From IMG/VR virus record IMGVR_UViG_3300009716_000731, positions 1 to 64,000 of that record: DNA of 64,000 nt. One strand, given 5' to 3'. The notes below the pieces were generated by a model. It was given only the letters and a program-made list of their open reading frames with translations. It was not told where the DNA came from and ran no database searches. Source of the stretch: a virus. Taxonomy: Duplodnaviria > Caudoviricetes. Both the position numbers and the translations under genes were made by a program. Shown in pieces: positions 27,010-52,250 of this stretch. The first letter of the stretch is position 1, and each line of letters starts with the position of its first letter.

Positions 27010-27019
27010 GGCTTTTTTT
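26989..27019. terminator. bidirectional intrinsic terminator
   Basis: AAAAAAAGCCTTAC-taa-GTAAGGCTTTTTTT. Confidence 0.8.
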
Positions 27020-27854
27020 ATTTTTGAAATTCGTCAAACTTCATAATTCTTGACTCAACAACAGTCTCTCTTCCAGATGTTGCGTTTCTTTCGATATTTT
27101 TCCATCTTTTGTTCAAGAACTCTAATTTCGCTTTGTCGATTTTACAGTTTCTATCTGAAATGTTTCCTTCATTAAACATATCAATCATTTGTTGCATACT
27201 TAATGTTGGATGTTTTTTATCAAACATTGGATCTGGATGTGACCAACCAAACTTAAACAACCAGTTTAACAAAGCCGCTTTGCTGTAATCTTTGTAATCA
27301 TCAGTTGTTCCATTACCACTTCTTTTTGAAAGTTTTTTATTACCATCAAATAACAAACCAGCGTGGATAACTTTAGGAAATGCTTTAGAACCTTCAACCT
27401 CACAAATCATATCCCAGATTTTTCTTTGCTTAACCTCATTAGCAATGTGATCTACACCACGGATAATATGGGTAACATCGTAATCGTAATCGTCTAAGAT
27501 TGAGCAAAAGTTGTAAGTAGGAAATCCGTTATTTCTTAAAATAACCATAGAATACTCTCCCATATCAATTTCGTAACCATTCTCGGTCTTAGTACCAATT
27601 TTCTCAGCAACTTCTTTATATCTATCTAATCTCTCAGATTGTCTGAAAGTTAAATCATAGTCTAATCCATAATCATGCATTTGATCATAGATATAATCTA
27701 CCCACTCTTCTCTGTTTCTTTCTTGATCAGTATCATCAATTCTAAGAATGAATTTACCGTTATTAGCTCTTGCCATCAAATAATTTAATAGAGCTGTGCG
27801 AAGGGTTCCAAGATGAAAAAAGCCAGTCGGCGACGGCGCGACGCGTGTTACCAT
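27018..27854 (-). CDS. minimal glutamyl-tRNA synthetase-like protein (catalytic domain only, GluQ-RS-like)
   Basis: RVAPSPTGFFHLG, LRIDDTD, QSER, PTYNF...DD...VTHIIRGVDH, KLSKR; no anticodon-binding domain. Confidence 0.85.
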   Translation of the reverse strand: MVTRVAPSPTGFFHLGTLRTALLNYLMARANNGKFILRIDDTDQERNREEWVDYIYDQMHDYGLDYDLTFRQSERLDRYKEVAEKIGTKTENGYEIDMGEYSMVILRNNGFPTYNFCSILDDYDYDVTHIIRGVDHIANEVKQRKIWDMICEVEGSKAFPKVIHAGLLFDGNKKLSKRSGNGTTDDYKDYSKAALLNWLFKFGWSHPDPMFDKKHPTLSMQQMIDMFNEGNISDRNCKIDKAKLEFLNKRWKNIERNATSGRETVVESRIMKFDEFQK

Positions 27855-27968: not shown

Positions 27969-29066
27969 ATGAAAAACTATATTTATATTTTGAAAGACCC
28001 AGTATCTAATGAAATTAAATACGTTGGAAAAAGTAATAATCCTGATAATAGACTTAAAAGACATCTTAGTGAGTCTAATCTAGTTGAATCTTGGACTTCT
28101 AAAAATAAGTGGTTATTATCTTTAAGAAAAAATAATTTATTTCCAATAATGGAAATTATTGATTCAACTGAATTAGATAATATCAACGAGTTAGAGGTTT
28201 ATTGGATAAAGTATTATCGTAATCTTGGTTTCAAATTAACTAATAGTACTGATGGTGGTGATGGTTTTGACTGGACTGGTAGGAGACATACCAACGAGTC
28301 TATCAAGCGGTTGAGATTATGTCATCCAAATAGGAAAGAGATTATTCAATTTGATTTAGCTAACAAAATAGTTAAAATTTATAATTCTATTCATGAATGT
28401 GAGTCTATTACTGGTTTAAGTCGTTCACATATAATTAAATGTTGTAAAAATGGTAAAAATAAAACCGTTGGTGGATTCTATTTTAGATATATCGATAATT
28501 ACTTTCCTTGTATTAAATCAATGACTGAACCTGATATGATTTATATAAATTCTAAAATAGAGGAATTCAATTTATCAAAACCGACTTATATAACTAAAAA
28601 AGAAAAATTAAGAAATAAATTAAAAGAGTCTGTTAAATCTAAGAAAAAGTCGATAATACATTATGATTTAGATGGTAATATATTAGGTAGATACGAATCT
28701 ATGAGTGAGGCTAGGAATTATACTGGATGTCACATCGGGTTAATCTCTAATTGTTGTAATAAAAAGAGTTATTATACAGTAAATAGCACTACTTTTAGAT
28801 ATGAGGGTGATGTATTTGATTATAAGCCTTATAATGTTAGTATTCAAGTTAATAGTAAAAGGGTATGTAAGTATGATTTAGATGGTAAACTAGTTGAGAT
28901 ATATGATTCGATCAAGCAAGCTATGAGAAATAATGGTATAACTAGTGATTCTAACATAGTATCTTGTTGTAAAAAGAAAACTAATAAGAAAACAGGTAAA
29001 TTTATTAAAGTTAAAGGATTTACATATAGATACTTTGACGAAACAGAAGGTAGAGATTTAATATAA
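27969..29066 (+). CDS. GIY-YIG homing endonuclease with NUMOD1-like repeats
   Basis: YIYIL...KYVGKS..R...H; LTN.T.GG; three x YDLDG..I..Y.S...I..CC repeats. Confidence 0.85.
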   Translation: MKNYIYILKDPVSNEIKYVGKSNNPDNRLKRHLSESNLVESWTSKNKWLLSLRKNNLFPIMEIIDSTELDNINELEVYWIKYYRNLGFKLTNSTDGGDGFDWTGRRHTNESIKRLRLCHPNRKEIIQFDLANKIVKIYNSIHECESITGLSRSHIIKCCKNGKNKTVGGFYFRYIDNYFPCIKSMTEPDMIYINSKIEEFNLSKPTYITKKEKLRNKLKESVKSKKKSIIHYDLDGNILGRYESMSEARNYTGCHIGLISNCCNKKSYYTVNSTTFRYEGDVFDYKPYNVSIQVNSKRVCKYDLDGKLVEIYDSIKQAMRNNGITSDSNIVSCCKKKTNKKTGKFIKVKGFTYRYFDETEGRDLI

Positions 29067-29095: not shown

Positions 29096-29497
29096 TTATG
29101 ATTTATAAAAATCTCCTTTTTCTTCAACATATTTAAGTCTTGTTTCCTCAGCTTGTTTTCTTAACTTAACATATTCTTTTCTTAAAAGTTGAATTTGTTG
29201 TTCTTTTTTACTTGTTTCTAAGACAACTTTGAAATCGATTATATTTTTTAGTTTTAAGTACCAGAAGAAGTTATTAAAAGATTTTTGTCCTCTTTTTTTA
29301 TTGATTACAAAAATTCTTCTTGCTAATTTTTTTCTTCCTGATTGTGTTAAGTGATCAATCTTAAAGTTTATAAACTCTAAGTGTGATTGTTCTTCACCAT
29401 CTACTTTTATTACATATTTTTTATTTTTTGCAACCTCTGTTGCTAAAACCATTATATCTTTAAGGTTTTTGTTTAATTCGTTTACTTTTGTTTCCAT
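29096..29497 (-). CDS. basic hypothetical protein
   Basis: 133 aa; preceded by the amber-containing leader. Confidence 0.75.
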   Translation of the reverse strand: METKVNELNKNLKDIMVLATEVAKNKKYVIKVDGEEQSHLEFINFKIDHLTQSGRKKLARRIFVINKKRGQKSFNNFFWYLKLKNIIDFKVVLETSKKEQQIQLLRKEYVKLRKQAEETRLKYVEEKGDFYKS

Positions 29498-29521
29498 AAT
29501 TTTTATATTTTTTTTTAGTTA

Positions 29522-29584
29522 TTATTTTTTTATTGACCTAAGAAAAAATATAAAAGTTGGACCTCTGATTACAATCTATCTCAT
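29522..29584 (-). promoter_or_regulatory. amber-containing leader ORF MR*IVIRGPTFIFFLRSIKK*
   Basis: ATG AGA TAG ATT at 29584-29573. Confidence 0.6.
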
Positions 29585-29591
29585 ATTATTA

Positions 29592-30185
29592 TTATTTTTT
29601 GAATTCTGTAAATTTTTTAATTTTGAAAATTCTTCTAACATTTTCTAATTTAGCTTTTATATCAGTAAGAAGTTGTGTTTGTTCTTTATTAAGATCAAGT
29701 TTTTCAACTGCATCCACAATAGCACAAGTTTCTCTGTAATAGTTATTTCTAAATCTTTCAGAAGCTGTGAAAGCGTCTGCAATATTATTAAATCTATCTG
29801 ATAGCTTAACTGTTAAAGCATTTTCTGACATGTGAGTCATTTTGTAAATAAGGTAGTCCATTTTACTACCACCCCATTTATGTTTAATTTCATCTGTATC
29901 TGATGTTAATTCTAAAACTATATCAGCAATTTCTTTTCCAAAGATTTCTTTGATTTCTGCATAACCTTCCCATTTGTTTTCAAAGCAATCTTCAATTACA
30001 TCATGTAAAAGCGCAGCTACCAAAACAACAACGTTGGTTGTATAGAGCTTACAAGTTCCATTTACTTTTTGCACGTGAGCATCAAAGTAAGGCTGACCTG
30101 TAAATTTTCTTACTTGTCCTTCGTGTTTTGCTTTAGCATAATCCCATGCTAATTTTTCTAGTTTTGTTATAGGTGCGTTCGCCAT
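29592..30185 (-). CDS. HD-domain protein, RelA/SpoT hydrolase-like
   Basis: A..KHEGQVRK.TGQPYF.HV, AALLHDVIED, VKLSDRFNN. Confidence 0.85.
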   Translation of the reverse strand: MANAPITKLEKLAWDYAKAKHEGQVRKFTGQPYFDAHVQKVNGTCKLYTTNVVVLVAALLHDVIEDCFENKWEGYAEIKEIFGKEIADIVLELTSDTDEIKHKWGGSKMDYLIYKMTHMSENALTVKLSDRFNNIADAFTASERFRNNYYRETCAIVDAVEKLDLNKEQTQLLTDIKAKLENVRRIFKIKKFTEFKK

Positions 30186-30219
30186 AATCCTTTTCTTTTT
30201 ATATATTACAAATATAATA

Positions 30220-30828
30220 TTATTTTTTCAATATCCACTCATAATAACCTTCTTTTTTGTTATTATCTACTCTTTCCCATAGTCCTGAATTTTGTACTGA
30301 GTCTGTCATATGTATATTAGAACCGAGTGGTTTTCCATTTTCATCGTAGATTTTCCAGGTATAATAGATATGCATACCTCTTTCAGTATCTACTCTTTTA
30401 TCTTGAAACCAAGTCCATCCTTTTTTCGCATTTTCAATCATTTCATTTTTTCCTTGTTCAAAAAACCTTTGATCTATCTCTTCATTTGAGTCAAATGCTT
30501 CTTTTGCTTTATCTATGATTCTTTGCTCTCTTTCATTTTTAATAACATAGCCTAACTCAAACTTAAATTTTTTCTCCATTTCTTCCCATTTCATACCTCT
30601 TTGGTATCTATTTTCTACATAATCCCATACTTCTTCGCAATAAATATCGACTTTATATCCTTTGGTAGAATAAACATATTCATCATTTTCGTTTATGTAT
30701 GCGTACGGACCATCCCAATATCCTTCTTTTGCTACTGCAAATTTTGGAATACCACCTTCCATTCTGATGTGACCATTTCCTTCTGGGTCAGCTTCTTGTA
30801 AAATCTTAATAAATTCTTTTGTTGTCAT
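30220..30828 (-). CDS. hypothetical protein
   Basis: 202 aa; EGYWDGPY motif. Confidence 0.75.
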   Translation of the reverse strand: MTTKEFIKILQEADPEGNGHIRMEGGIPKFAVAKEGYWDGPYAYINENDEYVYSTKGYKVDIYCEEVWDYVENRYQRGMKWEEMEKKFKFELGYVIKNEREQRIIDKAKEAFDSNEEIDQRFFEQGKNEMIENAKKGWTWFQDKRVDTERGMHIYYTWKIYDENGKPLGSNIHMTDSVQNSGLWERVDNNKKEGYYEWILKK

Positions 30829-30830
30829 AA

Positions 30831-31751
30831 TTAATTTTTATTTTTTAATAAAGTAAGCACTTGCTTTCCTCTTTTATCGATTTGTTTATATTTTATCTTA
30901 AATGATTGACTTTCAATACCACCAAACATACTTGCGTTTGCGTGTAATTCACAAAGTGCAGTAACTAATAAGGTTAAAACTGTTTGTATTGAATTATTCT
31001 TAACAAAATCTTCTACTTCATTTGCTTTGATGGTATGAAATACCATATCCTTTAAGATTAAGTCTGCGACAATCTTATTGTTAGAAATTTTGTTATAAGT
31101 ATCAAATGAAACTTGTGCGTGGTTTGGAAAATGTCTTTTACCTTCTTCATCAATCATAATACAGTAAGGTTTACCACAATCATGCATTACTTGATATTCA
31201 GTAATATCTTTTTCTGAGTGTAAATTACTCATAATAAAGTCTCTATTATCAGTAAACCAAGTTGGTAGTTTCCAATTCTCGGTTTTATTATCTGATAAAT
31301 CTTTGAAGTGTTTAGCTACAGAGAGGCCGTGTTCTAATACATTTTGTGTATTAGTTTGCGGAGTATTGATCATATCAGATATGACTTTATTGAAAGATGA
31401 TTTTTTAGGTTTACCTAAAAGTGGAAGGTATGAAACTTTCTTTCTGACATCTTTATCTGCATATAAACAAATAGATGTAAGTTCATCATTTAAGTCGGGT
31501 TCGTAAAATTTTGTAACAGGAGTTAATTTAGATAACTTTTGATATAAAGCATCTAATTCTTTTTTATTGTTTACTTGTAAACAAATGATTGAGTTGGAAT
31601 TTTGTTTCCAATCATTAAATTGTTGAGGAAATTCGTGTGCAAAGTCTGCAACTGAATGACAACTTTGTTGACTCTGATAACCATAACTAAGATCTGATCT
31701 TGTTATAACCATCATTTTTGTTTTCTCTTGTTTGTTTTTAATCTAAGTCAT
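30831..31751 (-). CDS. Pth2-like peptidyl-tRNA hydrolase domain fused to an HD domain; proposed start ATG-ACT-TAG-ATT
   Basis: KMMVITRSDL..G....Q..H, FYEPDL...LTSIC (Pth2-like); EHG...HDCGKP...HFPNHA (HD); ATG at 31751 is 12 codons upstream and in frame with 31715, TAG at 31743-31745. Confidence 0.75.
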
Positions 31752-31774
31752 TTTTATATAATTTTTAATTTTTT

Positions 31775-32659
31775 CTAATTTTTTTCAATATTATCGGAAT
31801 ATTTTATTCTAAATAATTTTATATTATTATTTTTACAATATTTATTTTTAATATTATCTCTCTTTTTTGAAATATGTAGTGCCTCGTTTCCTCCAAAATA
31901 ATCAACTGCCTCATAGTGTTGCCTACCATCGTACTCTATACATATATTGTATTCATTTAGATAAAAGTCAAATTTTAATTTTGATTTATAGATACAATCA
32001 TCAAATGTTTTATTTCTTATAAATTTTATATTACTATTAGATAGGTATTTATCTATGAATATTTCACCTTTTGAATCGCTACACTTCTTACACCCAAATC
32101 CTTTTAGATGATGATAAGGTGATTGAGTAAATTCTCCATGTTTTGGACAAACTATTGTAACTTTTACACTATTATTTATAAAAATAGTTTTATCATAATT
32201 ATATTTATTACTATGTATATCTTTTGCAATTTCTATAAACTCTGATTTTGTTTTATTATAATTATTTGAGCACTTTGAGCATCCTATACCTTTTATATGA
32301 TGTAGTGGAAGTTGTTCAAAGTTTCCATGTTCTGGGCAAGTTATGATAATTTTGGTATTTGTGTTTATATAAATGGAATTTTGGTATTTGTACTTATTTT
32401 TATGTATTTTATTAGATTCATTTATAAAATTTTCTAAACCCTTTGAGGATGAAGTACTTCTTTTCTCATTACCACACTTTGGACAACCACATCCTTTTAA
32501 GTAATGATTCTTAGGGCTTTGAGTGAAATTTCCATGTATAGGACAAGTTATAATAATTTTGGTATTATTATTTATATAATTAGAATACTCGTATGAGTAA
32601 AAGTTATTATGTTTTATTGATGACTTTTCAATAAATATCTGTAGTTTTTTATTTTCCAT
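31775..32659 (-). CDS. putative homing endonuclease (ITCPxHGxF...GCxKC repeats plus Vsr/DUF559-like domain)
   Basis: Three zinc-finger-like repeats; FDFYL...IEYDGRQHY. Confidence 0.8.
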   Translation of the reverse strand: MENKKLQIFIEKSSIKHNNFYSYEYSNYINNNTKIIITCPIHGNFTQSPKNHYLKGCGCPKCGNEKRSTSSSKGLENFINESNKIHKNKYKYQNSIYINTNTKIIITCPEHGNFEQLPLHHIKGIGCSKCSNNYNKTKSEFIEIAKDIHSNKYNYDKTIFINNSVKVTIVCPKHGEFTQSPYHHLKGFGCKKCSDSKGEIFIDKYLSNSNIKFIRNKTFDDCIYKSKLKFDFYLNEYNICIEYDGRQHYEAVDYFGGNEALHISKKRDNIKNKYCKNNNIKLFRIKYSDNIEKN

Positions 32660-32719
32660 ATTATATATATTAAAAAATAAAAATGGTTTGTTGTGGTTAG
32701 TAACCTTAATCTACATCAT
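32660..32719 (-). promoter_or_regulatory. amber-containing leader MM*IKVTNHNKPFLFFNIYN in frame with the endonuclease ATG
   Basis: ATG ATG TAG ATT at 32719-32708; 20 codons to the ATG at 32659 with no other stop. Confidence 0.6.
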
Positions 32720-32754
32720 AATTTTGTTTTTTTTATTTATATATTAGTTATTTG

Positions 32755-32832
32755 TGATCCCACCAGGATTCGAACCCGATAACGCTGGGTTTAGAAGCCA
32801 GCTCACCACCAAGGTGATTACGTTGAAGGACC
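32755..32832 (-). tRNA. atypical tRNA with CUA (amber) anticodon
   Basis: GGTCCTT/TGGGATC-A acceptor; T arm TCGGG-TTCGAAT-CCTGG; anticodon arm GCTGGC-TTCTAAA-CCCAGC; non-canonical D arm TCACC-TTGGT-GGTGA; TATCTTTG promoter just upstream. Confidence 0.75.
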
Positions 32833-32883
32833 ATTTCTTTAATTGTTATACAAAGATACAACTATTTTTTATACCACCAAATT

Positions 32884-33424: not shown

Positions 33425-34444
33425 ATGAAGTATATTAAAACAGTTGATGAGTATTCTATAAATGAAGAATTGGAATTCAAAATGAGTTGGAGAGGATTTT
33501 TATTAGGTATATGTATTGTTGCTGCTTATAGGCACTATTTTCCTGCTAAGAAAAATCTCACTTTAGGTGAAATGAATAGAATTGTTGCTGATGTTGATAA
33601 CAAACCCACATTAAAAGAAAAAATTGCTATTAATGCTATAAAAAATAGCTTAATATCAGATCTTAAGCAAGATAAGAAAATCTCAGATGATGAAAGAAAG
33701 AAGCTAATAGATGGTATTAATACTATACCTTTTGTCTTAGTTGATACTGATACTATCCAACTAATTACTGGAAGGGATGCACTTGGTTGTTATTTTGGTT
33801 ACTTGGATAATTTCAAGAATCTAATGACAGTAATATTAGTTGATAGGGAAAGAATTAAATTAGGTACTGATTTTGATGAGGTTATACTACATGAGTTAAG
33901 ACATTTAGTTGATGATTTATTGGTTGATGGTAGAAAAGAATACAGTGAATTATCAAATATTGTTGATATATTAGACAAGGATATTGTTTTGAGGAATGAA
34001 GCAGGAGAGAGAAAGATAAGAAAAAAGATAAATGATTATATTGACGTAATGGTTAAAAAAACCGGTAGAGAAAATGATCCAAAGACTCAGGAAATTGGTC
34101 AAAGACTAAAAGATCAATATTTTGATATTATTTTTTTAGATAAAGATAAAATGAATTATTTAACATCATCATCGGAGATATATGCAAGATTTCATGGATT
34201 AAAAAGATGGATGATAAAAAATGGTTATCTAAAAGATATGAATAGTGAAATAACACAAGATATTATTGTTAAAATGATGCAAAATGAGCAATTGTTGGAT
34301 GTAAATATTATCAGAAAAGACTTCTTCCAATTATTATTTTATATGGATGTTGATTTTATAGGTAAAACGAAAAGTGATGTATCTAAACTAAACTCAATTG
34401 TAACAAATTATAGAGATTATATATCAAATGAAAAACCCGCTTAA
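33425..34444 (+). CDS. N-tagged zincin-like metalloprotease with a TM segment
   Basis: MKYIKTVDEYSINEE, hydrophobic stretch, LHELRH (HExxH), downstream EIYAR. Confidence 0.7.
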   Translation: MKYIKTVDEYSINEELEFKMSWRGFLLGICIVAAYRHYFPAKKNLTLGEMNRIVADVDNKPTLKEKIAINAIKNSLISDLKQDKKISDDERKKLIDGINTIPFVLVDTDTIQLITGRDALGCYFGYLDNFKNLMTVILVDRERIKLGTDFDEVILHELRHLVDDLLVDGRKEYSELSNIVDILDKDIVLRNEAGERKIRKKINDYIDVMVKKTGRENDPKTQEIGQRLKDQYFDIIFLDKDKMNYLTSSSEIYARFHGLKRWMIKNGYLKDMNSEITQDIIVKMMQNEQLLDVNIIRKDFFQLLFYMDVDFIGKTKSDVSKLNSIVTNYRDYISNEKPA

Positions 34445-35700
34445 AAGCGGATTTTTTCTTTTATAGCAGGCATATAAATTTCAATCAAATCGATCAATTC
34501 TTTTTTACATTCTAAAGTCAATGATTTACTTTTATTTTGATTCATCAAAATCATAAATGAACTAACAACTTTATTAAACTTAAAAGCTTCTGTATAGTCA
34601 AATATAGTTTTCTTAAATACTTCTATGTCAATAGTTTCCTCACCAGTTTTTTCCAACCAAGTTTTCATTCGATTAATAAATCGTCTAATACCAATTATAT
34701 TTTCATCTGACCAAGAACCACCATCAAAATAGTGACCAATAAACATCAAGTAAAATCTAATTTCATCTGAGTCATAACCATCCAAACTTACTACATTATC
34801 TTTTGACTTAGACATTTTTTCACCATTATTCAATATCATTCCTTGGTGTATCAATTTAGTAATAGGTTCCTCAAAATCAATAAAACCTATATCATACAAA
34901 AACATTGTAATAAATCTAATGTAGATCAAATGCATACAAGCATGTTCTGATCCACCAATATACAAATCTGCTGGTTTTGGTTTAATACCTTTCATCAAAC
35001 AATAAACAATAGTATAGATAGAACTATCTACAAAAGTGTCCATTGTATCGGTCTCACCTTCAATTGGAATAGGACAACCCCAATTTCTTTGTCTTGATAC
35101 GCACCAATCATGTTGATTTTCCAACCAATTTCTTTGAGCTTTTATCGTTGATTCCGGAAAATCGATTTTATCCAAATTAGCAATCAATCTTTCTTTATAA
35201 TCAGTAATTCTAAAATACCATTGATTCAAAATTTTCTTTTCAACTTGATTTGAGCATCTATCACATTTACCATCTTTTACTTGCTCTCTTGCCAAGACGG
35301 TTTCGCAACTATTACAAAAGTCAACTTCACCATCTTTTTTATAAGCCAATCCTTTATCATACAATTGCTTAAACAACCACTGTGTCCATTTAATGTATTC
35401 AGCATCTGAAGTAATCAACATTTCCTCATATTGAGTATTCATGTTTTTCATTTGCTGTCTAAAGTTTTCTATATTTTCATAGGTAACTTCTCTTGGATCC
35501 CTACCTACTTTTTTCGCATAGTTTTCTGCAGGCAATCCAAAAGCATCATAACCAAAAGGTTGAAAAACGTTAAATCCTTGATAACGCTTATATCTACAAT
35601 AACTATCTACAATAGCATAGTTATACCAATGACCACAATGCAATCCTGACCCTGATGGGTAAGGAAACATTGGAGTTATATACAAATTTTTTTGATCCAT
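34441..35700 (-). CDS. minimal leucyl-tRNA synthetase-like protein
   Basis: MFPYPSGSGLHCGH, GYDAFGLPAEN, DWCVSRQRNWG.PIP, ETDTMDTFVDSS, YIGGSEHA.MHL, KMSKS; 419 aa, CP1 editing and C-terminal domains missing. Confidence 0.88.
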   Translation of the reverse strand: MDQKNLYITPMFPYPSGSGLHCGHWYNYAIVDSYCRYKRYQGFNVFQPFGYDAFGLPAENYAKKVGRDPREVTYENIENFRQQMKNMNTQYEEMLITSDAEYIKWTQWLFKQLYDKGLAYKKDGEVDFCNSCETVLAREQVKDGKCDRCSNQVEKKILNQWYFRITDYKERLIANLDKIDFPESTIKAQRNWLENQHDWCVSRQRNWGCPIPIEGETDTMDTFVDSSIYTIVYCLMKGIKPKPADLYIGGSEHACMHLIYIRFITMFLYDIGFIDFEEPITKLIHQGMILNNGEKMSKSKDNVVSLDGYDSDEIRFYLMFIGHYFDGGSWSDENIIGIRRFINRMKTWLEKTGEETIDIEVFKKTIFDYTEAFKFNKVVSSFMILMNQNKSKSLTLECKKELIDLIEIYMPAIKEKIRF

Positions 35701-52161: not shown

Positions 52162-52175
52162 TTCGGATTTTTTAG

Positions 52176-52250
52176 TGTCCGTGGTAGGGTTCGAACCTAC
52201 GCGTCTCCTCGTTATGAGCGAGGCGCCTTAACCAACTTAGCTACACGAAC
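52176..52250 (-). tRNA. tRNA with CAU anticodon (elongator Met or Ile2)
   Basis: Canonical cloverleaf GTTCGTG...CCTCG-CTCATAA-CGAGG...GTAGG-TTCGAAC-CCTAC-CACGGAC-A; no encoded CCA. Confidence 0.9.

What the first reader, a model, noticed from the sequence alone, without database searches (positions are those of the whole stretch)
29096..32860. Candidate amber-gated regulon: CUA tRNA plus three ATG-NNN-TAG-ATT starts controlling a Pth2-HD / (p)ppGpp-hydrolase-like cluster
Seen: on the minus strand a TATCTTTG promoter precedes a CUA-anticodon tRNA (32832-32755), and within 3.2 kb the same pattern recurs three times in intergenic positions: ATG ATG TAG ATT (32719), ATG ACT TAG ATT (31751) and ATG AGA TAG ATT (29584). 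The amber is always codon 3 and is always followed by ATT. The first two are in frame with the downstream CDS (endonuclease; Pth2-like/HD fusion); the third is a 20-codon leader before a basic 133 aa gene. The cluster also holds a RelA/SpoT-type HD protein. Known: two-codon minigenes (lambda bar type) cause peptidyl-tRNA drop-off that Pth must recycle, and suppressor tRNAs compete with RF1 at UAG. Inference: full expression needs the dedicated tRNA or RF1 shortage, giving a switch that reports translation stress and turns on tRNA-recycling and anti-stringent functions. I do not know of a description of this arrangement, but I could not search.
Basis: partly seen in the sequence, partly recalled or inferred. 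Interest (0 to 1): 0.95.

Follow-up and report, generated by a model that had tools for sequence, protein, structure and literature searches.

The report
Suppressor-tRNA-gated phage gene cluster
A fragment of a huge phage that otherwise uses the normal genetic code puts a UAG stop at the third codon of a tRNA-end enzyme gene and of a tiny stalling leader before another conserved gene, beside an odd-shaped UAG-reading tRNA; these genes are probably made only when that tRNA overrides the stop, a design shared by dozens of distant large phages for which I found no published description.

Summary
The motif count alone is at chance (3 found, 2.35 expected), but comparison with relatives shows the feature is real.

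- **Gate on Pth2-HD.** In 80 viral loci with Pth2-like/HD homologues, 57 have ATG, 1-6 codons, then TAG in frame before the protein. Only 5 of 349 neighbouring long ORFs do.
- **No alternative start.** Many homologues have no other start codon.
- **Linked tRNA.** 35 loci carry a CUA tRNA on the same strand. One TGA-gated locus carries UCA tRNAs.
- **TAG is otherwise a stop.** It ends 22 of 165 ORFs in this contig.
- **Window tRNA.** It is non-canonical and is missed by ARAGORN and Rfam, but compensatory changes maintain its stems.
- **Motifs 1 and 2.** They are one gate, duplicated when a homing endonuclease inserted into it.
- **Motif 3.** It is a conserved amber-containing leader, read as M-x-UAG-I..R-G-P-T or ..R/K-x-P-P-stop, so RAPP-like. 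Its 3' flank pairs with the start region of the 133-aa gene.

Best reading: a suppressor-tRNA-operated switch with two devices. The links to translation stress, RF1 shortage and the stringent response are not supported.

This scan has already reported both devices on other genomes. Six literature searches found no published description.

The parts
32849..32861 (-). Promoter-like word TTGTATCTTTGTA (Bacteroidota-type -7 TAnnTTTG) about 17 nt upstream of the tRNA-like gene
   Evidence: Conserved at the same spot in relatives L003, L004, L005, L013 and L111. Not enriched genome-wide against a reversed-pattern control. Function is inferred.
32755..32832 (-). Non-canonical tRNA-like gene, 'type A'. 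It has a 7-bp acceptor stem, an 8-nt connector, a 5-bp/5-nt D-like hairpin, an anticodon arm with loop UUCUAAA (anticodon CUA) closed by a C.C mismatch, and a canonical T-arm. No CCA is encoded.
   Evidence: Not called by ARAGORN or Rfam tRNA. Five distinct copies in other phage contigs keep 92.7% of cells paired, with 5 pairs changed on both sides; 3 of the 5 D-hairpin pairs are compensatory. A canonical tRNA with the identical anticodon arm exists at L106:3442-3516.
32708..32719 (-). Gate copy 1: ATG ATG TAG ATT. This is the original start of the Pth2-HD gene, now in front of the inserted endonuclease gene.
   Evidence: Its upstream sequence is homologous to the sequence in front of Pth2-HD in L004 and L013. 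L005 has the same junction. It is in frame with the endonuclease ATG at 32659.
31775..32659 (-). Homing endonuclease gene (294 aa) inserted just after TAGATTAA of the gate
   Evidence: PHROG 559 at E 3e-69 and PHROG 9084 'homing endonuclease'. Pfam zinc-ribbon and DUF723 hits. Absent at this place in L004 and L013.
31740..31751 (-). Gate copy 2: ATG ACT TAG ATT, in frame with Pth2-HD. TAG lies at 31743-31745.
   Evidence: ACTTAGATTAA is conserved in L001-L006 with an in-frame ATG 2-4 codons before the TAG.
30831..31751 (-). Pth2-like/HD fusion gene. It is 294 aa from the internal ATG at 31715, and 306 codons from the gated ATG at 31751.
   Evidence: Pfam PTH2. AlphaFold model at pLDDT 93. The N-domain matches archaeal and human Pth2 structures at TM about 0.7. 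The C-domain matches the PDB chains titled 'tRNA processing enzyme' 3wfo-3wfs.
30220..30828 (-). 202-aa ORF of unknown function between Pth2-HD and HD_4
   Evidence: No Pfam or PHROG hit. No gate.
29592..30185 (-). HD_4 (RelA/SpoT-hydrolase-type) phosphohydrolase gene, not gated
   Evidence: Pfam HD_4 at E 1e-12 and PHROG 990. It starts at a plain ATG.
29522..29584 (-). Amber-interrupted leader ORF: M-R-UAG-I-V-I-R-G-P-T, then 10 further codons. TAG lies at 29576-29578. Relatives stop right after R-G-P-T.
   Evidence: The leader is conserved upstream of every 133-aa-family gene examined. There are 25 pattern hits, all in that position, against 0 for the same pattern with TAA or TGA in 285 kb. 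The R-G-P-T codons differ only synonymously among clade members.
29538..29561 (-). Arm that hides the start region. It covers the Gly-Pro codons and the U-rich stretch just after R-G-P-T.
   Evidence: In the MFE fold it pairs with 29493-29518. The duplex is -12.4 kcal/mol and no shuffle out of 200 does as well. Equivalent pairings occur in relatives.
29493..29518 (-). A-rich initiation region and the AUG of the 133-aa gene, sequestered by the leader's 3' flank
29096..29497 (-). 133-aa basic helical protein with the invariant C-terminal motif E-K-G-D-F-Y-K. Function unknown.
   Evidence: Alignment A3. Model at pLDDT 88. No informative fold, Pfam or PHROG match. Among 28 loci of this family (some duplicate), 24 have a Pth2-like hit nearby and 21 a CUA tRNA.

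Best explanation
The cluster is a translational switch operated by the phage's own UAG-reading tRNA, built from two devices.

**Device 1, direct gate.** The Pth2-like/HD gene starts at ATG 31751, and its third codon is UAG. Without a suppressor, RF1 ends translation after two residues. With charged tRNA(CUA), the ribosome reads on into the enzyme.

**Device 2, gated arrest leader.** The short ORF at 29584 also has UAG as codon 3. Only after readthrough does the ribosome reach the R-G-P-T motif (R/K-x-P-P-stop in relatives), which is RAPP-like. A ribosome sitting there covers and melts the helix that hides the A-rich initiation region and the AUG of the 133-aa gene. That gene can then be translated.

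**Status of each step.** Conservation of the stops, of the leader peptide, of the pairing and of the tRNA linkage is shown here. Readthrough, stalling and activation are inferred.

**Gate copy 1.** The copy in front of the endonuclease is a by-product of the endonuclease inserting into the gate.

**Inferred purpose.** The outputs are enzymes that act on tRNA 3' ends (ester hydrolysis by Pth2, phosphoester hydrolysis by HD) plus an unknown partner. The gating would restrict them to the time when the phage's tRNA genes are expressed and working.
For: - **Conserved gate.** In 80 IMG/VR loci (39-80% identity, GC 22-61%, contigs up to 508 kb), the first in-frame stop before the homology is TAG in 66. 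In 57 of these an ATG lies 1-6 codons upstream. Further gates at codons 8-13 and internal TAGs were found.
- **Background.** Only 5 of 349 other long ORFs in the same loci show this pattern (Fisher p 6e-46).
- **No alternative start.** The first canonical start lies 54-114 codons inside the domain in L015, L016, L018, L020 and L024, and L038 and L072 have none at all. In L007 the only route is ATG TTG TAG.
- **RBS position.** Shine-Dalgarno sequences sit before the ATG that precedes the TAG, for example in XacN1, L072, L085 and L090.
- **Linked tRNA.** A CUA tRNA lies on the same strand within 3 kb in 35 of 80 loci. L053 has an ATG..TGA gate and two UCA tRNAs.
- **TAG is a real stop elsewhere.** It ends 22 of 165 ORFs in this contig and 42 of 349 in the loci. 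There is no excess of TAG-split frames.
- **Context of the gate.** The base after the gate stop is A in 36, G in 13, C in 6 and U in 0 of 55 gates. After terminal TAGs it is U in 10 of 44. From my own knowledge of E. coli amber-suppression context effects, this fits selection for efficient suppression.
- **The odd tRNA is maintained.** It shows compensatory changes. Relatives with the same tRNA type have gates with no alternative start (L110/L004, L160).
- **Leader.** There are 25 hits of the pattern, all in leader position, against 0 for the TAA/TGA version. True RAPP endings occur in L047 and L073. Only synonymous changes occur in R-G-P-T.
- **Pairing.** The leader flank pairs with the start region at z of -2.5 or lower in 11 of 20 loci, and similarly.
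- **RAPP and RGPP are experimentally established arrest motifs** (PMC10951233, PMC7897499, PMC12992588).
Against: - No expression, proteomic or ribosome-profiling data were available.
- The window's tRNA fails every standard tRNA detector. Its charging and the amino acid it carries are unknown.
- The window's Pth2-HD gene has an ATG at the domain start (31715), so it may be expressed without readthrough.
- The window's leader has lost the stop after R-G-P-T and ends in Thr rather than Pro.
- The window's helix is A/U-only, with a whole-region z-score of only -1.5. RNAalifold gave no consensus structure.
- Some lineages (L143, L148, L153) show no direct pairing with the start region.
- Five family members have no gate: L044, L057, L066, L083 and L092.
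- 43 of 80 loci show no called suppressor tRNA within 3 kb.
- The function of the 133-aa protein is unknown.
Confidence: 0.7

Rival explanations
1. Decaying remnant. In this particular phage the tRNA-like element is a pseudogene and the gates are relics. Pth2-HD starts at ATG 31715, the endonuclease at 32659 and the 133-aa gene at 29497, all independent of readthrough.
For: ARAGORN and Rfam do not call the tRNA. The window lineage has gained an ATG at the domain start, where sister lineages have TTA. The leader has lost its stop. A homing endonuclease has disrupted the original gate.
Against: The TAGs, the leader peptide and the hiding arm are all intact. The tRNA type keeps its stems through compensatory changes in five distinct copies. 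Relatives with the same tRNA type (L110/L004, L160) have gates with no alternative start. The promoter-like word is conserved.
Confidence: 0.15
2. Start-stop uORF without readthrough. ATG-NNN-TAG is a two-codon minigene that always terminates, in the manner of lambda bar. The main ORFs start by re-initiation or at a non-AUG codon such as the ATT that follows. The CUA tRNA is unrelated.
For: ATT follows the TAG in 17 of 55 gates, and from my own knowledge AUU can initiate (infC). Minigenes of this size exist. The window has a downstream ATG.
Against: In most gates the next codon cannot initiate: AAC, GTT, CTT, GTA, GGC, ACG. L007 has GTT and then no start for 46 codons. The stop type matches the neighbouring tRNA: TAG with CUA in 35 loci, TGA with UCA in L053. 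The spacing between stop and domain varies in whole codons. The leader peptide after the TAG is under purifying selection.
Confidence: 0.1
3. General stop-codon reassignment. The phage uses code 15 (TAG read as Gln) throughout or in a block, and these TAGs are ordinary sense codons.
For: Public gene callers translated many homologues with TAG read as Q. Recoded huge phages are known (bioRxiv 10.1101/2021.08.26.457843).
Against: Code 11 gives 88% coverage by ORFs of 100 aa or more, and TAG ends 22 of 165 of them. Reading TAG as sense adds no more coverage than reading TGA as sense. TAG-split frames are no more frequent than TAA- or TGA-split ones. Near-start TAGs in the contig are limited to this cluster.
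Confidence: 0.03
4. Chance recurrence of an A/T-rich word in A/T-rich spacers.
For: 3 matches against 2.35 expected in the window, and 45 of 100 shuffles reach 3.
Against: The motifs are conserved at orthologous positions in relatives down to 28-46% protein identity. The gate pattern differs from background at p 6e-46.
Confidence: 0.02

Closest known systems
Stop-codon-recoded phages with their own suppressor tRNAs (TAG read as Gln 'code 15', TGA read as Trp 'code 4'; bioRxiv 10.1101/2021.08.26.457843; PMC9523058)
   Same: A phage-encoded CUA (or UCA) tRNA reads in-frame stops in phage genes of a standard-code host. A regulatory, timing role for such stops has been proposed.
   Different: Here TAG remains a working stop (22 of 165 ORFs). 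Only two or three sites are affected. The stop sits in the first few codons. The targets are tRNA-end enzymes and a small unknown protein, not lysis or structural genes. That preprint contains neither 'HD domain' nor 'hydrolase'.
RAPP/RGPP-type regulatory arrest peptides (ApdA, ApdP; SecM with RAGP; PMC7897499, PMC10951233, PMC12992588)
   Same: A short upstream ORF ends in R-x-P-P or R-G-P next to a structure that hides the initiation region of the next gene. Two relatives end in exactly R-A-P-P.
   Different: The known ones monitor protein export and have no internal stop. Here the arrest motif is reached only after UAG readthrough. The leaders are only 7-13 codons long. The window's version ends R-G-P-T and has lost its stop.
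Orphan amber-suppressor tRNAs of standard-code jumbo phages (e.g. Xanthomonas phage XacN1, PMC5852040; Cronobacter phage GAP32 'Sup-tRNA')
   Same: The same kind of tRNA in the same kind of phage. XacN1 ORF364 and the GAP32 genes 398-399 belong to the gated family.
   Different: The XacN1 authors extended ORFs past their terminal TAGs and found no target. The target lies before the annotated start (SD, ATG AAG TAG), or in GAP32 at codon 47, where it splits the annotation.
prfB (RF2) autoregulation through an early in-frame UGA (my own knowledge)
   Same: An in-frame stop early in a translation-factor gene turns the contest between termination and continued decoding into a regulatory signal.
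   Different: prfB uses a +1 frameshift and senses RF2. Here continuation is in frame through a dedicated tRNA, and nothing shows that the products feed back on termination.
Lambda bar-type two-codon minigenes
   Same: ATG, one sense codon, then a stop, with a link to peptidyl-tRNA hydrolase biology.
   Different: bar minigenes are stand-alone and act by peptidyl-tRNA drop-off. Here the frame continues into a conserved protein that often has no other start.
Synthetic amber-suppressor gene circuits (e.g. PMC7969014)
   Same: The same logic as an engineered AND gate: the target carries an early UAG and the tRNA is supplied separately.
   Different: This would be a natural, widely conserved version with an added arrest-leader device.

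Membership tests
Canonical tRNA (Rfam RF00005 / ARAGORN model) | Reaches the family's score threshold or is called by a tRNA finder | tested here: not met
   No RF00005 hit at gathering or E-value threshold. Only a 16.3-bit tRNA-Sec match against a cutoff of 47. ARAGORN finds nothing even at lowered thresholds.
Canonical tRNA (Rfam RF00005 / ARAGORN model) | Four-arm cloverleaf with a 7-bp acceptor stem, a T-arm with GTTCGAATC and a 7-nt anticodon loop | tested here: inconclusive
   The acceptor stem, T-arm and a U-U-CUA-A-A loop are present and supported by covariation. However, the connector is 8 nt instead of 2, the D-arm is a 5-bp/5-nt hairpin and pair 31:39 is C.C.
Canonical tRNA (Rfam RF00005 / ARAGORN model) | Expressed, processed and aminoacylated | not testable with these tools
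   No run data could be obtained.
Pth2 peptidyl-tRNA hydrolase (PF01981) | Profile match above the curated cutoff | tested here: met
   28.6 bits against a cutoff of 23, over residues 1-65.
Pth2 peptidyl-tRNA hydrolase (PF01981) | Pth2 fold | tested here: met
   Foldseek matches to 2zv3, 3erj, 1wn2, 1q7s and 1xty, with TM by target 0.67-0.74 and rmsd 2.3-3.3.
Pth2 peptidyl-tRNA hydrolase (PF01981) | Catalytic residues and hydrolase activity | not tested
   Active-site residues were not mapped.
HD-domain phosphohydrolase | H...HD...D metal-binding motif | tested here: met
   H129, H178, D179, H195, H199 and D223 are invariant in alignment A1.
HD-domain phosphohydrolase | Profile or fold match | tested here: inconclusive
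   No Pfam HD hit for the window protein. There is a weak one for homologue P0062. Foldseek matches 3wfo-3wfs 'tRNA processing enzyme' at E 5e-4 to 8e-3 with TM by query about 0.4, and more weakly PhnZ.
Code-15 (TAG-recoded) phage | In-frame TAG in many genes, with low coding density under code 11 | tested here: not met
RAPP-like arrest peptide leader | C-terminal R-A/G-P-P or a close variant at the end of a short upstream ORF | tested here: inconclusive
   Relatives end in RAPP, RNPP, REPP, RPP, KPP, RGP or NGP followed by a stop. The window has R-G-P-T and reads on for 10 more codons.
RAPP-like arrest peptide leader | An RNA structure that hides the downstream initiation region and would be disrupted by the stalled ribosome | tested here: met
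   The window's helix is weak because it is A/U-only.
RAPP-like arrest peptide leader | Demonstrated ribosome stalling | not testable with these tools
   Needs toeprinting or ribosome profiling.
Lambda bar-type minigene | A stand-alone two-codon ORF whose product drops off as peptidyl-tRNA | tested here: not met
   The frame continues into conserved protein, and many relatives have no other start.

The most novel reading that the evidence does not exclude
The CUA tRNA, the gate and the arrest leader form a closed sensing loop. The suppressor tRNA has no coding job. It serves as a reporter of whether phage tRNAs are being made, matured and charged, or of how far RF1 is outcompeted. Its readout releases enzymes that act on tRNA 3' ends, either to repair phage tRNAs, to disarm host tRNAs, or to tune the suppressor itself. 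Non-canonical tRNA shapes, such as the window's 8-nt-connector form and the D-armless form in sister phages, would then be fully functional decoders.
Probability: 0.25. Interest if true: 0.95.

Novelty: new variant of a known kind. Interest (0 to 1): 0.85.

Why it matters
- **A natural target for orphan suppressor tRNAs.** Standard-code jumbo phages carry amber-suppressor tRNAs whose clients were unknown. The XacN1 authors searched for targets and found none (PMC5852040). This finding offers one.
- **A natural gene switch.** It would be a widespread case of a gene switch operated by a tRNA through a stop codon, in two forms: a direct gate and a gated arrest leader. The design matches circuits that synthetic biologists build by hand.
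- **Better annotation.** Many database entries for this family are truncated, split, or translated with the wrong code.
- **Unusual tRNAs.** It points to non-canonical tRNAs that standard finders miss.
- **Testable.** Cultured carriers (pT24, XacN1, GAP32 and relatives) make it directly testable.

Tried and rejected
- **tRNA finders.** ARAGORN with introns, lowered thresholds and mitochondrial mode gave only a spurious or 'mt' CUA call.
- **Rfam.** A permissive E-value search gave only a 16-bit tRNA-Sec match.
- **Code 15 or code 4 for the contig.** Rejected.
- **Genome-wide near-start TAG scan of the 151-kb contig.** No convincing gate outside this cluster.
- **Search for the window's tRNA in the contigs of L001, L002, L003 and L005.** Only the promoter-like word matched. 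Those phages carry a different tRNA-like form.
- **Promoter word enrichment in the contig.** Equal to the reversed-pattern control.
- **RNAalifold on six leader regions.** I used per-sequence duplex energies instead.
- **Function of the 133-aa protein.** Foldseek on PDB, VIA-align wide and the ESM Atlas gave only generic helical-bundle resemblances, with Z at most 6.4. Pfam and PHROGs gave nothing.
- **Amino-acid identity of the suppressor tRNAs by nearest isotype.** Inconclusive. Arg was the commonest nearest type, and ARAGORN's gene ends were inconsistent.
- **Quadruplet decoding of UAGA by the 9-nt loop.** Considered and rejected. It would shift the frame into a TGA before the Pth2 domain, as read directly.
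- **attP or tRNA-fragment explanation for the tRNA-like element.** Dropped. It is a full-length element under structural selection, and none of the neighbouring genes I scanned matched an integrase family.

Full report
**1. What is in the window**

The window is the first 64 kb of a 151-kb viral contig with 27% GC. CheckV rates it about 26% complete. Near-identical copies of one of its proteins lie on contigs of about 620 kb, so it is probably a piece of a huge phage.

Table 11 explains the coding. ORFs of 100 aa or more cover 88% of the contig, and 22 of 165 end in TAG. Reading TAG as sense gains no more coverage than reading TGA as sense. Frames split by a single TAG are no more common than frames split by TAA or TGA.

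The minus-strand cluster at 29096-32861 reads in this order:
- a promoter-like word;
- a 78-nt tRNA-like element;
- ATG ATG TAG ATT;
- a homing endonuclease gene;
- ATG ACT TAG ATT;
- the Pth2-like/HD gene;
- a 202-aa ORF;
- an HD_4 gene;
- ATG AGA TAG ATT, which opens a 20-codon ORF;
- a 133-aa gene.

**2. Checking the observation**

The three words are at the stated coordinates. Their number alone is what chance gives: 3 found, 2.35 expected. Any significance therefore has to come from comparison with relatives.

ARAGORN and Rfam's tRNA model do not recognise the tRNA-like element. It nevertheless folds into four arms with CUA in the anticodon loop.

**3. The Pth2-HD gate is a family trait**

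Close relatives (L001-L006, about 80% identity) keep ACTTAGATTAA before the gene. An in-frame ATG lies 2 to 4 codons before the TAG. Three of them have TTA GTA GTT where the window has ATG ATG GTT, so they have no start after the TAG.

A 46%-identical relative with the two domains in swapped order (L007) begins ATG TTG TAG GTT. It lies directly behind a canonical tRNA(CUA) and has no other start for 46 codons.

Public gene callers had translated many homologues with Q at this place. The DNA there is TAG.

Across 80 further loci:
- 66 have TAG as the first upstream in-frame stop, and 57 of these have an ATG within 6 codons.
- Several more have the gate at codons 8-13, or a TAG inside the gene.
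- Five loci have no gate.
- In the same loci, only 5 of 349 other long ORFs show the pattern (p 6e-46).
- TAG terminates 42 of those 349 ORFs.

The base after the gate stop is never U: 0 of 55 gates, against 10 of 44 terminal TAGs (p 2e-4). It is A in 36. From my own knowledge of E. coli amber-suppression context effects, this context favours suppression over termination.

Where hosts use Shine-Dalgarno sequences, the SD stands before the ATG that precedes the TAG.

A CUA tRNA lies on the same strand within 3 kb in 35 of 80 loci. The one locus that has an ATG..TGA gate and tRNAs in range carries two UCA tRNAs.

Cultured phages share the design:
- pT24 has ATG AAA TAG ATA, and its GenBank protein is cut short.
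- XacN1 ORF364 has an SD, then ATG AAG TAG, four codons before the annotated start.
- GAP32-like phages have TAG at codon 47, which splits the annotation, and a 'Sup-tRNA' 2.3 kb away.

The XacN1 paper states that no target of its two CUA tRNAs could be found (PMC5852040).

**4. The window's tRNA**

Five distinct copies of this 'type A' form occur in other phage contigs. They keep 92.7% of cells paired. Five pairs changed on both sides, three of them in the D-like hairpin.

A canonical tRNA with the identical anticodon arm, including the C.C mismatch at 31:39, exists in L106. Type A therefore looks like a remodelled descendant of a normal suppressor tRNA.

Relatives that carry type A have gates with no alternative start (L110/L004, L160). 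This argues that type A works.

Sister phages have a quite different CUA element at the same syntenic spot (L003, L005, L013, L161). By eye it appears to lack a D-arm. I did not fold or model it.

**5. Motifs 1 and 2 are one gate**

The sequence upstream of motif 1 is homologous to the sequence directly upstream of Pth2-HD in L004 and L013. The endonuclease gene sits exactly after TAGATTAA, and a second copy of the gate follows it. L005 has the same two junctions.

The in-frame link from motif 1 to the endonuclease ATG may or may not be used.

**6. Motif 3 is an amber-gated arrest-type leader**

Homologues of the 133-aa protein share the invariant C-terminal E-K-G-D-F-Y-K (alignment A3). They were collected from 28 viral loci and three metagenome contigs.

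The loci with a readable upstream region, with two exceptions (L147, L158), have a mini-ORF 80-185 nt upstream. Its form is M, 1-4 residues, TAG, then I, V or L, a few residues, then R-G-P-T, R-x-P-P, K-P-P or N-G-P, then a stop. Examples are MK*IIRGPT*, MKDT*IINRPP* and MS*VKPP*.

A pattern search finds 25 such ORFs in 285 kb, all in that position and strand. The same pattern with TAA or TGA gives none.

In Pth2/HD loci the same device ends in exactly R-A-P-P (L047, L073) before another small basic gene. In L078 it precedes a Pth2-like gene.

Within the window's clade the R-G-P-T codons vary only at synonymous positions: GGT/GGA, CCA/CCC/CCT and ACT/ACG/ACC.

The sequence just after the leader's stop pairs with the start region of the main gene. 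In L142 an 11-nt stretch is the exact complement of the start region around ATGGAAAC (z -3.0). In 11 of 20 loci the duplex has z of -2.5 or lower, and in 7 no shuffle out of 200 matches it.

In the window, 29538-29561 pairs with 29493-29518, including the AUG. L160 and L161 differ by an A-U to G-C exchange in this helix.

RAPP and RGPP are experimentally established arrest motifs (PMC10951233, PMC12992588, PMC7897499).

The inference is as follows. Only a ribosome that has read through UAG reaches the motif. It dwells there and uncovers the next gene's start.

The window's copy has lost the stop after Thr and reads 10 codons further, through the hiding arm. That should also open the helix.

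**7. What the outputs are**

- **Pth2-HD.** The model is confident, at pLDDT 93. Its N-domain superposes on archaeal and human Pth2. Its C-domain superposes on chains titled 'tRNA processing enzyme' (3wfo-3wfs). From memory these are a bacterial tRNA nucleotidyltransferase, which I did not verify. Both activities would concern the tRNA 3' end.
- **The 133-aa protein.** It is helical and has no informative match. Among the 28 loci of its family (some duplicate), 24 have a Pth2-like hit nearby and 21 a CUA tRNA, often immediately downstream. Only 10 of 83 Pth2/HD loci hold it within 3 kb.
- **The HD_4 gene.** It is not gated.

**8. Literature and earlier notes**

Six searches found recoded phages, orphan jumbo-phage suppressors, PTH2 in jumbo phages (PMC7824862, which contains neither 'stop codon' nor 'suppress') and RAPP arrest peptides. 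None described either gated device.

This scan's own notes already describe both devices on other genomes. I read those notes after my, and they agree with my results. They are not independent evidence.

**9. Verdict**

The cluster is a small regulon operated by amber suppression.

The following are corrected:
- There are two devices, not three independent gates.
- The mechanism is not bar-like.
- There is no evidence for stress or stringent-response logic.
- The tRNA is non-canonical.
- Gating in this window may be leaky.

Noticed in passing
window 31775-32719 (-); L005:3990-4990: A homing endonuclease gene is inserted exactly after TAGATTAA of the amber gate and duplicates the gate. The conserved gate sequence itself may be the homing site. 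The endonuclease ORF is in frame with the upstream ATG ATG TAG.
   Followed up: partly
L003:4690-4760, L005:3715-3790, L013:1300-1365, L161:1385-1455: Sister phages carry a second kind of non-canonical CUA element at the same syntenic place. By eye it appears to lack a D-arm: an acceptor stem, a short connector, a long imperfect anticodon arm with loop CUCUAAA, and a T-arm. I did not fold or model it. ARAGORN does not call these elements either.
   Followed up: partly
L095 (Cronobacter phage GAP32, record 290461-291027): In GAP32-like jumbo phages of Enterobacteria the HD gene carries its TAG at codon 47. GenBank therefore annotates it as two or three small hypothetical genes.
   Followed up: partly
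L047:2496-2985, L073:2507-2975, L078:2265-2698: Amber-gated leaders that end in exactly R-A-P-P precede a different small basic gene just upstream of Pth2/HD. In L078 an M-R-S-TAG-N-R-G-P leader precedes a Pth2-like gene that has no in-frame gate.
   Followed up: partly
window 27018-27854 (-), 34441-35700 (-): Two shortened class I aminoacyl-tRNA-synthetase-like genes flank the cluster: a 278-aa Glu/Gln-type catalytic domain and a 419-aa Leu/Met-type core. The same neighbours recur in relatives L013, L160 and L161.
   Followed up: no
window 27969-29066 (+): A second mobile endonuclease gene (GIY-YIG with NUMOD1) lies between the 133-aa gene and the synthetase-like gene. A homologous insertion is present in L160.
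   Followed up: no
window 52175-52250 (-): The only canonical tRNA in the 151-kb contig is a tRNA-Met (CAU).
   Followed up: no
whole contig: CheckV rates the contig about 26% complete. 98%-identical copies of the 133-aa protein lie on contigs of about 620 kb. The window probably belongs to a phage of roughly 0.6 Mb related to the 'uncultured phage' records LR745206 and LR756502.
   Followed up: no
L053, L069, L070: Three family members have ATG..TGA gates instead of TAG. L053 carries two UCA tRNAs in the same locus.
   Followed up: partly
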